This document shows, piece after piece, positions 6,001 through 9,000 of a DNA stretch of 32,000 bases (its first letter is position 1; each line of letters starts with the position of its first letter). Source of the DNA: Dickeya dadantii NCPPB 898 (GTDB taxonomy: Bacteria; Pseudomonadota; Gammaproteobacteria; Enterobacterales; Enterobacteriaceae). Made by a program: the position numbers. The stretch covers positions 4,639,545 through 4,671,544 of the forward strand of contig NZ_CM001976.1 of assembly GCF_000406145.1 (NCBI RefSeq), read 5' to 3'.

Positions 6001-9000
6001 TTATACCGCCTGACGTAATTGTCCGTTTTCGCCATCAGCCACCACCTGCCCGTCAGAAAGCACAATGGTGCGCTGAGCGCGCATGGCGGAACGCGGATCA
6101 TGGGTAACGATGCAGATGGTCGCGCCGTCCTGATGCAGTTCATCCAGAATATTCATCACCGCTTCGGCGTTGGCGGAATCCAGATTTCCGGTCGGTTCGT
6201 CCGCCAGCAGCAACGACGGCTTGCCGACAATCGCCCGCGCCACCGCCACCCGCTGTTGTTGACCGCCGGAAAGCTGTGACGGGTAGTGGCGCACCCGATG
6301 CGACATGTTGACTTTTTCCAGCGCCTGAATGACCCGCGCTTTCTGCTCCGAGCGCGACAGGTCATTGCGGTAAGTGAGCGGCAACGCCACGTTTTCCGCG
6401 ATAGTCAGGTCGCTTATCAGATTAAATGACTGAAAGATAAAGCCAATTTCCCGGTTGCGCAGGCGGGCCATCTCCCGGCGGCCGATACGTTCTACATCCG
6501 CGCCGTTCAGCCGGTAGCGCCCTTCCGTTGGCGTGTCCAGTAGGCCCATGATGGACAGCAGCGTCGATTTCCCACAACCGGACGGTCCCGCGATAGAGAC
6601 GTATTCTCCCGAGTGAATAGAAAGGTTTATCTTGCTAAGGGCATGCGTTTCAATTTCATCGGTAAGAAAGATTTTATGCACATTATCAAGTTGAACCAGC
6701 ACCGTCATGGGAAATCCTCAGTGTATAAATAGAGTCAGCCTTCCTGAGGCCGAGGGTATCTTACAGGCTGCAGACCACGCACTTTTATCTCTGGTTTTAA
6801 AAATGTGCCCAAAATACCTCCACCCGTCCATGACGACGCCCCTTTCCTTGCGCTGACTGGCCCTTCCGCTGACAGGCTCTCCAGGTCGTTTCCTGTTCAT
6901 CTGCGTCAGACAGCACGCACACGGTCTTCACGAACATCGGTTTCGCGTCTTCTGATCACAGCACAAATCATACCAATTACGTCCTGATCGCAGCCGACGA
7001 CCCGCTCGCCGGGCAGAAGCAGCCTCCGGCAGCCGATGCGCACGTCAGCACGGTGCGCCGGCTCGTGGCAGGGTAGCGTATCCGGCTCGTCATTTGCGAG
7101 ACGAAAAATCCCATGTTTGGCACGACACGATCCCATTAATGGGACGAGTTACAGGTAGGTGTAAGTATTTCCCTTTAAAAACAACCCCTCACAACATGGC
7201 ACACAATTTGCGTTAGACAGATCGCACATCGGACCAAAGGACAATAATTAACCTCAGACTTCGCCGCTGTAAGGATTTTTGGATTTAGCTGGACCAGACA
7301 CGGGGAATCTATTTTTTTTGGGATGACACCATGAGCTTGCAGAACACCTACGCCCATACGTTGGATAATGATATTTTCAACAACAATCTGATTCAGGATA
7401 TGTACCGCCGTCACCCTAATCTGCGCAAAACGCTTGCAGCAAATAATAAAGCGACCAGCCTGGCGGGAATTATTGACTATATCATCGACAACATCGGTAA
7501 CAATATTACGCTGGAAGATCTTGAAGACGTCAGCGGTAAATCAAAGTTTGATATTTGCCGTCTTTTCAATCAGGTCTATAACATTACGCCGATGCGCTGG
7601 ATTTGGCGCGTACGCCTGACGCTGGCAAAAGAGATCATTCAGATTTCGCCCAACTGGTCGCTCACCGATATTTGCTACGCCTGTGGCTTTTCCTCGCTAC
7701 CGCATTTTTCCCGTTGTTTTACCAAGACCTACAACATTCCGCCGCTGAAGTACCGCAAAGCAGTCTCGCAGGAACGGGAAAACGAACCGCCCCGCACCAT
7801 GCAAAACATGAGCTTCGATATTATTTTCGGCAAACAGCGTCATCTGTTCTCACGTCACGTGCTGCTGGATAATATCCAGAACCTCTGTAATTAAATACCG
7901 TCGCCCGCCGTCGCCGATGGCGGGCGCACCAGATGCGTCAACGCCCGGCGGTAATATCATGTCCGCTTTGATGCCGTCGGCATCGGACCGTACCGCGACG
8001 GATCCGCGTCATCAGGCATTGTCGAATACTGAATAAGTGGCGGTATCGGCCTTTCAGTTCCCACTTCAGCATCAGATAAAAACGACAGAATGCGCTGGTG
8101 TACCAGGGGGCTGCGTAAAATCCCCAGATGGCCCAGCCCGCGGGTATAGAACACATCGCTACGGGCAAACGCCCGGTGGATTTCATCCGCCACCGCCGGA
8201 TGGACACGAACATCCTGCCAGTCATGGCAAATCAGCGCCGGACAATCGAGCATGCGATAGAGCGTTTCGCCGACCTGATCGGGATGAAAGCCAAAGCGCT
8301 GTGCATAAATCGCTTTCATGGGCGCCGCCAGCGACGCCGACACCGACGCGCCGGCCAGAAATCGGTCGATCATTTTGCCGAAGTTATCGGGGCTGGCCAG
8401 CAGCACCAGCCGCTCCGCCGCCAGTCCCTGCGCCAGCGCCAGGCTACACACCAGACCGCCGCTGGAATGCCCGACCACCGCATAGAACGGGCCGTAGCGC
8501 TGCCCCAGCCGGATAAGCAGACTGGCCAACTCATAGTTGGACACCCGCTTTCCGTCAGACAGCCCGTGTGCCAGCAGATCCGGCATCACCACGCCGTACC
8601 CCTGCGCTTTTAGCGCCTCGCACAGCGGCCGGAACATAATGCCGCGGCCCTCCCAGCCATGCACCAGCAACACGTTTTTTGCCGGCGCGTCCGCGGGCGG
8701 CGGCACCCAGCGAAACACATACACGTTCTGGTGCTGAAAACAGACCGTCTCCTGTCGAAAATCGGCCAGATAGTCGTGGTCCATCTGCTTGTAAGAGATA
8801 TAACGTGTGGTTTCAAACAGATGTAGCAGATAGCGCGCCGCCAGATGCAGGGAACAACGCTCCAGCAACCACAAATCCGCCAGACGCAGCGCGCGGCACA
8901 GCCGGATGTAATGCGTTTCCGGCTTGATCCGCACTTTAAGCAGCAGCGACGGGCGGCGCTTGAGCTTCACCAGCGCGCGGTAGTAGTTGTACTGGACGAG

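What the first reader, a model, noticed from the sequence alone, without database searches (positions are those of the whole stretch)
7107..7147. TCCCAT-core sites, including a perfect 14-bp palindrome, at enhancer distance from the sigma54 promoter
TCCCAT occurs at 7109 and 7131 (22 bp apart). The second copy forms the perfect palindrome TCCCATTAATGGGA (7131-7144). The centres lie roughly 85 and 110 bp upstream of the predicted transcription start, which is the usual range for enhancer-binding-protein sites. The 12-mer AATCCCATGTTT and the 10-mer AATGGGACGA both recur upstream of the KAS III-like operon 5 kb away (next finding). This argues for a shared regulator, either the AraC protein or the sigma54 activator. 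By rough estimate, an identical 12-mer in two short intergenic regions is unlikely by chance (order 1 in 100).
Basis: seen in the sequence. Interest (0 to 1): 0.7.

Follow-up and report, generated by a model that had tools for sequence, protein, structure and literature searches.

The report
VfmH enhancer sites upstream of vfmE
The repeated TCCCAT words are half-sites of a conserved 14-bp palindrome that most likely docks the quorum-sensing response regulator VfmH upstream of the sigma-54 promoter of the virulence regulator gene vfmE (and again upstream of vfmA); the regulatory link was already known from gel-shift work, so this mainly pins it to exact bases.

Summary
The window is the vfm quorum-sensing cluster of Dickeya dadantii, 98% identical to strain 3937.

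- **The motif:** the TCCCAT cores are half-sites of a 14-bp dyad, TCCCA-N4-TGGGA.
- **The array:** three dyads lie 21-22 bp apart at 7088-7101 (weak), 7109-7122 and 7131-7144. Their centres are -128.5, -107.5 and -85.5 from the vfmE start site.
- **The promoter:** a published start-site map puts that start (window 7223) exactly 12 nt after the GC of TGGCACACAATTTGC. The sigma-54 promoter is therefore used in vivo.
- **Conservation:** the same dyad-plus-sigma-54 layout precedes every vfmE-like gene I examined in Dickeya, Prodigiosinella, Lonsdalea, Rahnella, Pseudomonas and Sodalis.
- **Distribution:** the dyad recurs upstream of vfmA(-like) operons but not upstream of vfmK. This matches the published in-vitro targets of the sigma-54 activator VfmH (vfmE and vfmA promoters). 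It does not match those of AraC-type VfmE (all vfm operons).

Best explanation: these are VfmH enhancer sites (confidence about 0.8). The regulatory link is known. I found no published base-level operator.

A separate GCAAYT box lies 34 nt upstream of the -10 hexamer of vfmA and vfmK promoters. It is the better candidate for a VfmE box.

The parts
7131..7144 (.). Dyad 2: perfect palindrome TCCCATTAATGGGA, centre -85.5 from the vfmE start site. Proposed strong VfmH site.
   Evidence: Both half-sites are invariant or nearly so in 10 sequences from Dickeya, Prodigiosinella and Lonsdalea, while the first two spacer bases vary.
7109..7122 (.). Dyad 1: TCCCATGTTTGGCA (1 mismatch), centre -107.5, 22 bp from dyad 2.
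   Evidence: The left half TCCCA is invariant. In the right half only the G (7119) and the A (7122) are invariant.
7088..7101 (.). Dyad 0 (weak): CGTCATTTGCGAGA, centre -128.5, 21 bp from dyad 1. It reads TGCCAATTACGGGA in a D. chrysanthemi-like genome.
Evidence: L073, 2 mismatches. Invariant CA...G.GA columns.
7197..7211 (+). Sigma-54 promoter of vfmE, TGGCACACAATTTGC (-24 GG at 7198-7199, -12 GC at 7210-7211).
   Evidence: the only exact match in the window. The 15-mer is identical in Dickeya and Lonsdalea and differs at one spacer base in Prodigiosinella. TGGCAY-N5-TTGC is present at every vfmE-like gene examined.
7223..7223 (+). vfmE transcription start, transferred from D. dadantii 3937 (genome 4735214). 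It lies 25 nt after the first G of GG and 12 nt after the C of GC.
   Evidence: Start-site table of PMC9239193 mapped onto the 3937 locus L092. The 3937 sequence is identical to the window from 7080 to 7318.
7331..7894 (+). vfmE, an AraC-family regulator of 187 aa (the target gene).
   Evidence: Pfam HTH_18 and HTH_AraC. Named VfmE by NCBI for 95-97% identical proteins.
1980..3380 (-). vfmH: response regulator with receiver, sigma-54 AAA+ and Fis-type HTH domains (466 aa). Proposed binder of the dyads.
   Evidence: Pfam Response_reg, Sigma54_activat and HTH_8. The recognition-helix stretch SRSAFYRR is invariant from Dickeya to Pseudomonas.
668..1987 (-). vfmI, the partner histidine kinase.
   Evidence: Pfam HATPase_c and HisKA.
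12456..12469 (-). vfmA-upstream dyad c: TCCCATTTTTGAGA (1 mismatch), centre -81.5 from the vfmA start-site equivalent.
   Evidence: Conserved in five Dickeya genomes.
12477..12490 (-). vfmA-upstream site b: TCCCATGTTTTAGC (strong left half only), centre -102.5, 21 bp from c. It holds the exact 12-mer copy.
12519..12532 (-). vfmA-upstream site a: TCCCATTATCAAAC (left half only), centre -144.5, 42 bp from b. It is less conserved (TCCCGC in D. oryzae and D. chrysanthemi-like genomes).
12381..12397 (-). vfmA promoter core. It is an extended -10-like TGgCAAAGT (12397..12389), with the start-site equivalent at 12381 (3937 genome 4740350). It is not a canonical sigma-54 promoter.
   Evidence: start site 7 nt after CAAAGT. 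(same geometry in Rahnella and Pseudomonas). (no GG-N10-GC in register).
11291..12223 (-). vfmA (KAS III-like, 310 aa), first gene of vfmAZBCD.
   Evidence: Pfam ACP_syn_III_C. The start at 12223 follows a GGAG Shine-Dalgarno sequence and matches the 310-aa gene calls in L073 and L086.
6961..6975 (-). Possible leftward sigma-54-type promoter, TGGTATGATTTGTGC, facing vfmFGHIJ. The dyads lie about -147 to -188 from it.
   Evidence: It is an island of conservation in five Dickeya genomes within an otherwise diverged spacer. It is positionally equivalent to TGGCAY-N5-(G/C)TGC in the Rahnella-type clusters. It is not a mapped start site in 3937.

Best explanation
The TCCCAT cores are half-sites of a 14-bp dyad, TCCCA-N4-TGGGA. 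This dyad is the operator of VfmH, the NtrC-family (Fis-type HTH) sigma-54 activator encoded 3.7 kb away.

Proposed mechanism at vfmE:
1. The Vfm signal is sensed via VfmI, and VfmI phosphorylates VfmH.
2. VfmH dimers occupy three dyads on one face of the helix, at -85.5, -107.5 and -128.5.
3. The bound dimers assemble into the active AAA+ oligomer.
4. By DNA looping, the oligomer remodels sigma-54 RNA polymerase bound at TGGCAC-N5-TTGC, so that vfmE is transcribed from window 7223.

The same protein binds a second array, at -81.5, -102.5 and -144.5, upstream of the vfmAZBCD start site. That array consists of one near-dyad plus two strong half-sites.

What is taken from the literature: VfmH binds vfmE and vfmA promoter fragments in vitro, and vfmE transcription needs VfmH.

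What is inferred: that these exact bases are the contacts, and the oligomerisation and looping steps.
For: 1. **Geometry.** The dyads are 21-22 bp apart and lie 85-129 bp upstream of a perfect sigma-54 promoter. The published D. dadantii 3937 start site falls exactly at the canonical +1 of that promoter.
2. **Symmetry.** The strongest site is a perfect or near-perfect palindrome in every lineage. The half-sites are kept while the spacer varies: TTAA, TAAA, GCAA, AAAA, TTAT, ATAT. This is as expected for a dimer of identical HTH domains.
3. **Conservation.** In a 10-sequence, three-genus alignment, 24 of the 42 dyad positions are invariant. Only 11 of the other 94 upstream positions are (my count).
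4. **Deep conservation.** Dyads plus TGGCAY-N5-TTGC precede vfmE-like genes whose proteins are only about 47-51% identical, in Rahnella, Pseudomonas, Sodalis and a D. poaceiphila-type cluster. That cluster has three good dyads, at -83.5, -106.5 and -148.5.
5. **Distribution.** Dyads with <=1 mismatch occur upstream of vfmE and vfmA(-like) and almost nowhere else (three stray copies across 14 related loci). There are none upstream of vfmK in D. solani, Musicola or Rahnella. This equals the reported VfmH target set. VfmH binds the vfmE and vfmA promoters, whereas VfmE binds all vfm operons and the cell-wall-degrading-enzyme genes (review PMC7912708; PMC12206141).
6. **The protein.** The VfmH HTH stretch SRSAFYRR is invariant across all these genera, while the adjacent linker keeps 17% invariant columns.
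7. **Genetics.** vfmE promoter activity requires VfmH (PMC10714721).
8. **Precedent.** Another bEBP, FleQ, has a proposed 14-bp 5-N4-5 palindromic box, GTCaNTAAAtTGAC (PMC6120874).
Against: - No site-level binding data were available to me. The published gel shifts used whole promoter fragments.
- VfmE is also reported to bind the vfmE and vfmA promoters, so co-occupancy cannot be excluded.
- At vfmA two of the three sites are strong half-sites only, arranged as 21-bp direct repeats. The downstream promoter is not a canonical sigma-54 promoter. How a sigma-54 activator would work there is unexplained.
- VfmH carries GAFTDA instead of the canonical GAFTGA sigma-54 contact loop (noted in PMC10714721). 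Sigma-54 was not recovered in that paper's pull-down.
- Lonsdalea keeps the promoter and dyads, but no vfmH lies within 10 kb. No Lonsdalea VfmH appeared among the 120 best VfmH relatives.
- No IHF consensus lies between the dyads and the promoter.
Confidence: 0.8

Rival explanations
1. The sites are boxes for the AraC-type regulator VfmE. VfmE autoactivates vfmE and activates vfmA through the shared AATCCCAT(G/T)TTT words, which act as tandem direct repeats in the way araI1-araI2 do.
For: VfmE is reported to bind the promoters of all vfm operons. vfmE promoter activity drops in a vfmE mutant (PMC9045272). At vfmA the well-conserved parts are same-orientation half-sites 21 bp apart. The VfmE HTH regions are also well conserved across genera.
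Against: - The best-conserved site is a 14-bp palindrome. By established knowledge of MarA/Rob/AraC-DNA complexes, an AraC-type domain has two different HTHs and covers an asymmetric site of about 17-20 bp.
- The sites lie 81-145 bp upstream of the start sites, and at vfmE in front of a sigma-54 promoter, not next to a -35 region.
- The motif is absent upstream of vfmK in three genera, although VfmE is said to bind that promoter.
- A different conserved element, GCAAYT at -47..-42, sits at the classical class II position of both vfmA and vfmK promoters. It is the better VfmE-box candidate.
Confidence: 0.1
2. The dyads are bound by another protein that acts on the vfmE promoter. Candidates are Fis, IHF, CRP, or an unidentified regulator that also exists in genomes lacking vfmH.
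For: Fis and IhfA shift vfmE promoter fragments (PMC5762655; PMC9452768). Lonsdalea conserves the dyads without a detectable vfmH nearby.
Against: - TCCCA-N4-TGGGA does not resemble the IHF consensus WATCAANNNNTTR, which has no match in 7088-7197. By my own knowledge it does not resemble the CRP or Fis consensus either.
- The IHF site predicted in PMC9452768 corresponds to window 7246-7258, downstream of the start site.
- Global regulators would not give a motif confined to two promoters of one gene cluster and travelling with that cluster into Pseudomonas.
- Prodigiosinella shows that vfmE can sit apart from the main vfm locus. Absence of vfmH beside vfmE therefore does not prove absence from the genome.
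Confidence: 0.07
3. The repeats are a chance recurrence of short words in AT-rich intergenic DNA, or a small hairpin with no protein partner.
For: The 10-mer AATGGGACGA alone is not significant. A 5-bp stem could form from the palindrome.
Against: The 12-mer statistics argue against chance. So does a perfect or near-perfect dyad at the same position in every related locus, and half-site conservation across genera with a variable spacer. No terminator-like site was called there and no Rfam family matched. The dyads lie upstream of the vfmE start site, so they are not in the vfmE mRNA.
Confidence: 0.02

Closest known systems
Upstream activating sequences of NtrC-family bacterial enhancer-binding proteins (for example NtrC at glnAp2)
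   Same: Several dyad-symmetric sites lie on one helical face about 80-150 bp upstream of a -24/-12 sigma-54 promoter. The cognate two-component response regulator, with a Fis-type HTH, is encoded nearby.
   Different: The half-site sequence (TCCCA/TGGGA) is new as far as I could find. The dyad is short (14 bp, 5-N4-5). The activator carries GAFTDA rather than GAFTGA. No IHF consensus lies between the sites and the promoter. A second array precedes a promoter that does not look sigma-54 dependent.
FleQ boxes of Pseudomonas (GTCaNTAAAtTGAC)
   Same: Both are a 14-bp, 5-N4-5, A/T-spaced palindrome bound by a bEBP (PMC6120874). VfmH's AAA+ domain is reported to be similar to FleQ's, and VfmH binds c-di-GMP as FleQ does (PMC10714721). 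FleQ also acts at promoters that are not sigma-54 dependent (my own knowledge), which could be a precedent for vfmA.
   Different: The half-site sequence differs. VfmH has a phosphorylatable receiver domain partnered with the kinase VfmI. No evidence here bears on c-di-GMP control of DNA binding.
The published Vfm cascade (Nasser et al. 2013; Lv et al. 2019)
   Same: It has the same genes and the same regulatory arrows: VfmI/VfmH to vfmE and vfmA.
   Different: The accessible literature gives fragment-level binding only. I found no stated operator sequence, no statement that the vfmE promoter is sigma-54 type, and no cross-genus comparison. I could not read the full texts of the two primary papers.
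AraC/XylS-family activator boxes (MarA marbox, araI)
   Same: The 21-bp direct repeats of AATCCCAT(G/T)TTT at vfmA resemble tandem AraC half-sites.
   Different: AraC-type sites are asymmetric, about 17-20 bp long, and normally abut or overlap the -35 region of sigma-70 promoters. These are 14-bp palindromes far upstream, one set of them in front of a sigma-54 promoter.

Membership tests
bEBP enhancer (UAS) of a sigma-54 promoter | A -24 GG / -12 GC promoter with the fixed spacing lies downstream of the sites | tested here: met
   TGGCACACAATTTGC at 7197-7211 is the only exact match in the window. It is conserved in all vfmE(-like) loci.
bEBP enhancer (UAS) of a sigma-54 promoter | Transcription actually starts at the position dictated by that promoter | tested here: met
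   The published start site 4735214 in strain 3937 lies 12 nt after the GC. The 3937 sequence is identical to the window there.
bEBP enhancer (UAS) of a sigma-54 promoter | Sites lie roughly 70-200 bp upstream, and two or more share one helical face | tested here: met
   Centres are at -85.5, -107.5 and -128.5, with spacings of 22 and 21 bp. Rahnella-type clusters have centres near -104, -146 and -226.
bEBP enhancer (UAS) of a sigma-54 promoter | Dyad symmetry matching a dimeric HTH protein | tested here: met
   The site is a perfect palindrome in Dickeya, Prodigiosinella, Rahnella and the D. poaceiphila-type cluster. The half-sites are conserved and the spacer is variable.
bEBP enhancer (UAS) of a sigma-54 promoter | A cognate sigma-54 activator with a DNA-binding domain is present | tested here: met
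   VfmH has Response_reg, Sigma54_activat and HTH_8 domains. Its HTH is invariant across genera. Caveat: the sigma-54 contact loop reads GAFTDA.
bEBP enhancer (UAS) of a sigma-54 promoter | The activator binds these bases, and transcription needs the activator and rpoN | not testable with these tools
   [quoted passage not shown] I found no footprint and no rpoN test.
bEBP enhancer (UAS) of a sigma-54 promoter | An IHF site or bend lies between the enhancer and the promoter (frequent, not obligatory) | tested here: not met
   No WATCAANNNNTTR with <=1 mismatch lies in 7145-7197. The IHF site predicted in PMC9452768 maps to 7246-7258, downstream of the start site.
AraC/XylS-type activator box (VfmE box) | An asymmetric site of about 17-20 bp, bound by two different HTHs of one polypeptide | tested here: not met
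   The conserved unit is a symmetric 14-bp palindrome.
AraC/XylS-type activator box (VfmE box) | The site abuts or overlaps the -35 region of a sigma-70 promoter | tested here: not met
   The sites lie at -81 to -145 from mapped start sites, and the vfmE promoter is sigma-54 type.
AraC/XylS-type activator box (VfmE box) | The motif is present at all promoters reported to bind VfmE, including vfmK | tested here: not met
   There is no dyad upstream of vfmK in D. solani, Musicola or Rahnella. VfmE is reported to bind all vfm operons.
Vfm quorum-sensing gene cluster | Gene content and order: vfmI-H-G-F, divergent vfmE, vfmD-C-B-(Z)-A, next to indC | tested here: met
   Pfam domains. The window is 98% identical to D. 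dadantii 3937 over 12.5 kb. Source names VfmE and VfmH.

The most novel reading that the evidence does not exclude
The dyad array may be a shared, bidirectional VfmH enhancer that drives promoters of two different classes.

- It would serve the rightward sigma-54 promoter of vfmE.
- It would also serve a conserved leftward sigma-54-type promoter facing vfmFGHIJ (6961-6975), giving VfmH autoregulation. This arrangement is clear in the Rahnella-type clusters.
- At vfmA, VfmH bound at -81, -102 and -144 would co-activate a sigma-70 extended -10 promoter together with VfmE bound at a GCAAYT box at -47.

That would be a coherent feed-forward loop wired into one promoter, with a sigma-54 activator (GAFTDA variant) acting FleQ-like on a non-sigma-54 promoter.
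Probability: 0.3. Interest if true: 0.55.

Novelty: new member of a known kind. Interest (0 to 1): 0.4.

Why it matters
Vfm is the main quorum-sensing switch for soft-rot virulence in Dickeya, and vfmE promoter fusions are the standard biosensor for its still-unidentified signal.

- **A base-level operator and the sigma-54 nature of the promoter.** These give precise targets for promoter mutagenesis and for minimal biosensors. They also allow a genome-wide search for further VfmH targets.
- **GAFTDA.** The data suggest an answer to a question raised in the 2023 VfmH paper, namely whether the GAFTDA loop still works with sigma-54. A canonical sigma-54 promoter is conserved in front of every vfmE-like gene, and the mapped start site fits it.
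- **Two separate motifs.** The VfmH sites are distinct from a candidate VfmE box, so the two tiers of the cascade can be tested independently.
- **Spread beyond Dickeya.** The same operator and promoter travel with vfm-like clusters into Rahnella megaplasmids, Pseudomonas and Sodalis. The system is therefore not Dickeya-specific.

Tried and rejected
1. **A sigma-54 promoter at vfmA.** The conserved TTGGCAAAGT looks like a -24 element, but the -12 position reads CTGT, CCGT or TCCA. The mapped 3937 start site is 15 nt after the first G of that GG, not 25 nt. No GG lies at -25/-24 of the mapped start. I read it instead as an extended -10, TGgCAAAGT, 7 nt before the start site. The equivalents are TGgGATTAT in Rahnella and TGgGACGAT in Pseudomonas.
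2. **Consensus sigma-70 promoters.** None was found in either intergenic region.
3. **An IHF site between the dyads and the promoter.** None was found.
4. **A known RNA element.** There was no Rfam match in 6700-12650.
5. **Protein conservation as a discriminator.** I compared the DNA-binding helices of VfmH and VfmE across genera. Both are conserved, so this does not discriminate.
6. **Whether Lonsdalea has VfmH.** None lies within 10 kb of vfmE. None carries a Lonsdalea name among the 120 best relatives or among the members of ten clusters at 63-87% identity to VfmH. This is unresolved, because whole genomes could not be searched.
7. **Other words shared between the vfmK upstream region and the two dyad-bearing regions.** Only chance-level 8-11-mers turned up.
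8. **The primary papers.** Nasser et al. 2013 is not held in the library. No search returned Lv et al. 2019, and I did not request it by identifier. I could not check whether footprints were published.
9. **More Dickeya species from the genome scan.** The peptide-pattern scan returned only two Dickeya loci. Further loci came from exact-protein look-ups.
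Full report
**What the window is**

Pfam domains identify the following genes:
- a histidine kinase (668-1987, -);
- a response regulator with a sigma-54 AAA+ domain and a Fis-type HTH (1980-3380, -);
- an ABC permease and ATPase (3561-6708, -);
- a divergent 187-aa AraC-family gene (7331-7894, +);
- a hydrolase, a MATE transporter and a KAS III-like gene on the minus strand;
- a 1488-aa ORF (12584-17050, -), not scanned itself, whose orthologues have adenylation, PP-binding and thioesterase domains; by position it is indC.

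NCBI names the closest relatives VfmE and VfmH. The window is 98% identical over 12.5 kb to Dickeya dadantii 3937. The finding therefore lies in the vfmF-vfmE intergenic region of the Vfm quorum-sensing cluster. The 'KAS III-like operon' is vfmAZBCD.

**Checking the observation**

All sequence statements are correct.
- The 12-mer AATCCCATGTTT has an exact second copy and a one-mismatch third copy, both upstream of vfmA. That is 3 matches against 0.18 expected.
- The 10-mer alone is not significant.
- TCCCAT is rarer than expected in the window, yet six of its ten copies lie in the two short regions.
- TGGCACACAATTTGC is the only exact sigma-54 consensus match in the window.

**What the unit really is**

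I aligned the vfmE upstream region from five Dickeya, two Prodigiosinella ('Pectobacteriaceae bacterium CE70' group) and three Lonsdalea genomes. The conserved unit is a 14-bp dyad, TCCCA-N4-TGGGA.
- Dyad 2 (7131-7144) is TCCCATTAATGGGA in most Dickeya. It is TCCCAGCAATGGGA in Prodigiosinella and TCCCAAAAATGGAA in Lonsdalea. The half-sites stay constant while the first two spacer bases change.
- The conserved block CGAGACGAA further upstream fits a third, weak dyad (7088-7101). It reads TGCCAATTACGGGA in a D. chrysanthemi-like genome.
- The centres are 22 and 21 bp apart.
- By my count, 24 of the 42 dyad positions are invariant. Only 11 of the remaining 94 positions upstream of the promoter are.

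**The promoter is real and is used**

The transcription-unit table of the D. dadantii 3937 transcriptome map (PMC9239193) lists a strong vfmE start site at 4735214. I fetched the 3937 locus (L092) and calibrated it on the vfmE start codon. That start site is the C lying 25 nt after the first G of the -24 GG and 12 nt after the C of the -12 GC. The window is identical to 3937 from 7080 to 7318, which puts the start site at window 7223. The dyad centres are therefore -85.5, -107.5 and -128.5.

**Deep conservation**

Proteins 47-51% identical to VfmE exist in Rahnella, Pseudomonas and Sodalis. They sit in clusters with the same gene order plus an extra membrane-fusion protein. VfmH there is about 65% identical.

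Every one of these vfmE-like genes has TGGCAY-N5-TTGC and upstream TCCCA-N4-TGGGA dyads.
- The D. poaceiphila-type cluster has TCCCTAATTTGGGA at -83.5, TCCCAAAATCGGGA at -106.5, TCCCATTATTGGGA at -148.5 and TCCCGTTTATGGAA at -229.5.
- Rahnella, Pseudomonas and Sodalis have sites near -104, -146 and -225.
- Rahnella aceris pRAHAQ01 carries the perfect palindrome with yet another spacer, TCCCAATATTGGGA.

**Where the motif is and is not**

I scanned 14 loci of 20-32 kb. Dyads with at most one mismatch lie upstream of vfmE and upstream of vfmA, with only three strays.
- The vfmA-like operons of Rahnella (TTCCATTAGTGGGA) and Pseudomonas (TTCCGTTTGTGGGA) carry one too.
- The internal intergenic gaps of the vfmK-W operon have none.
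- I reached the vfmK promoter region through VfmP homologues. It has no dyad in D. solani or Musicola.
- It has none in Rahnella either, where 53 kb spanning the whole cluster was read from the plasmid record.

**Which regulator**

The decisive comparison is with the literature. The review PMC7912708 summarises Nasser et al. 2013. [quoted passage not shown] VfmE, in contrast, binds the promoters of the enzyme genes and of all vfm operons. PMC12206141 repeats this and adds that in D. zeae EC1 VfmH also binds the vfmF promoter, which shares the same intergenic region. vfmE promoter activity requires VfmH.

The dyad's distribution (vfmE and vfmA yes, vfmK no) is the VfmH pattern.

Three further points support VfmH:
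- a 14-bp palindrome suits a dimer of identical Fis-type HTH domains, and FleQ, a related bEBP, has a proposed 14-bp 5-N4-5 box;
- the distances and phasing are typical of enhancers;
- the VfmH stretch SRSAFYRR is invariant from Dickeya to Pseudomonas, next to a poorly conserved linker.

An AraC-type domain, with two unlike HTHs on an asymmetric site of about 20 bp, fits poorly. That point rests on established knowledge of MarA, Rob and AraC complexes.

**A separate candidate VfmE box**

I examined nine vfmA-type and vfmK-type promoters, from four Dickeya species, Musicola, Rahnella and Pseudomonas. Each has exactly one GCAAYT, and it begins exactly 34 nt upstream of a -10-like hexamer: TGG+CAAAGT, GATTAT, GACGAT, TATACT or TATCAT.

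In strain 3937 the mapped vfmA start site lies 7 nt after CAAAGT. GCAACT (window 12428..12423) is therefore at -47..-42, the classical class II position. This element is absent from the vfmE-vfmF spacer. I propose it, as inference only, as the VfmE box. It also explains why the AraC option is not needed for the TCCCA dyads.

**The vfmA array**

Relative to the start-site equivalent (window 12381):
- site c (TCCCATTTTTGAGA) is at -81.5;
- site b (TCCCATGTTTTAGC) is at -102.5;
- site a (TCCCATTATCAAAC) is at -144.5, just after the indC terminator.

Only c is a good dyad, and a is not conserved in all Dickeya. No canonical sigma-54 promoter fits the mapped start. How VfmH acts there is open. The options are co-activation of a sigma-70 extended -10 promoter together with VfmE, or a non-canonical sigma-54 promoter combined with a start-site error of about 10 nt.

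**Loose ends**

- VfmH and all its orthologues have GAFTDA rather than GAFTGA. The invariable pairing with a canonical sigma-54 promoter argues that the variant still works with sigma-54.
- Lonsdalea keeps only a rump locus, vfmK-vfmW-vfmJ-vfmE-argG. There VfmE is 85% identical and the other proteins about 50%. The promoter and dyads are intact, but I could not find a VfmH. Prodigiosinella shows that vfmE can be separated from the main locus. A complete-genome search is needed.
- A leftward TGGTATGATTTGTGC (6961-6975) is an island of conservation in five Dickeya genomes. It corresponds to clear TGGCAY-N5-(G/C)TGC promoters facing the MFP-vfmFGHIJ operon in the Rahnella-type clusters, where dyads lie near -118 and -198 from it. 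It is not a mapped start site in 3937, where vfmF starts at window 6750 from a conserved sigma-70-like promoter.

**Verdict**

The regulatory arrows have been known since 2013. The new content is the base-level operator, the sigma-54 assignment backed by a mapped start site, the cross-genus conservation, and the separation from a candidate VfmE box. Interest is moderate.

Noticed in passing
window 12423-12428 (-), with the -10-like CAAAGT at 12389-12394 (-); also L098 about 3964, L099 about 3997, L101 about 4849, L100 about 24830, L083 about 15046: Each of nine vfmA-type and vfmK-type promoters from five genera has exactly one GCAAYT. It begins exactly 34 nt upstream of a -10-like hexamer, at -47..-42 from the mapped vfmA start site. 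It is a candidate VfmE (AraC) class II box, distinct from the TCCCA dyads.
   Followed up: partly
window 6961-6975 (-): TGGTATGATTTGTGC is a sigma-54-type element facing vfmF. It is conserved in five Dickeya genomes within an otherwise diverged spacer. It is equivalent to TGGCAY-N5-(G/C)TGC in front of MFP-vfmFGHIJ in Rahnella, Pseudomonas, Sodalis and the D. poaceiphila-type cluster. It may be a bidirectional use of the dyads (VfmH autoregulation). It is not a mapped start site in 3937.
   Followed up: partly
window 7240-7252: GACAATAATTAAC in the vfmE 5' UTR (+18 to +30) is nearly invariant across Dickeya, Prodigiosinella and Lonsdalea. It overlaps the IHF site predicted in PMC9452768 (window 7246-7258), which therefore lies downstream of the start site. 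Its function is unknown.
   Followed up: partly
window 12273-12322: A perfect 9-bp tandem repeat (ACGCTCATG, 5.6 copies) lies in the vfmA leader, between the start site (12381) and the likely start codon (12223). Each unit carries an ATG in frame with vfmA. Copy number differs between species. A related repeat family (ATGACGCTCCA...) fills the vfmS-vfmT gap in L096 at 16936-17166.
   Followed up: no
L079-L085, L100 and L101 (Rahnella, Pseudomonas, Sodalis, the D. poaceiphila-type cluster); clusters: Complete vfm-like clusters exist outside Dickeya. They have the same order plus a membrane-fusion protein, a P450 and a luciferase-like gene. They are found on Rahnella megaplasmids and in Pseudomonas and Sodalis. 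VfmH-like proteins are also named from Pantoea/Winslowiella, Serratia microhaemolytica and Salmonella/Enterobacter. The literature calls Vfm Dickeya-specific.
   Followed up: partly
L004-L007 (Lonsdalea), about 6900-10560: Lonsdalea has only a rump locus, vfmK-vfmW-vfmJ-vfmE-argG. VfmE is 85% identical to the Dickeya protein and the other proteins about 50%. The sigma-54 promoter and dyads are intact, but no vfmF/G/H/I or vfmABCD lies within 10 kb, and no VfmH orthologue was detected.
   Followed up: partly
window 1980-3380 (-), VfmH residues 231-236: The sigma-54 contact loop reads GAFTDA, not GAFTGA, in VfmH and in all orthologues from six genera. Each is paired with a canonical sigma-54 promoter at vfmE.
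   Followed up: partly
window 6735-6753 (-): A stem-loop (TCGGCCTCAGGAAGGCTGA) starts 3 nt upstream of the vfmF start-site equivalent (6750) and runs into the 42-nt vfmF leader. The terminator scan flagged it. It lies in a block conserved across Dickeya.
   Followed up: no
L098 3958-3972; L099 about 3990: The vfmK upstream region of D. solani has TGGCATGCAATTTCA. This matches the vfmE sigma-54 promoter at 11 of 15 positions but lacks the -12 GC. The -24 part is not conserved in Musicola. It overlaps the GCAATT box.
   Followed up: no
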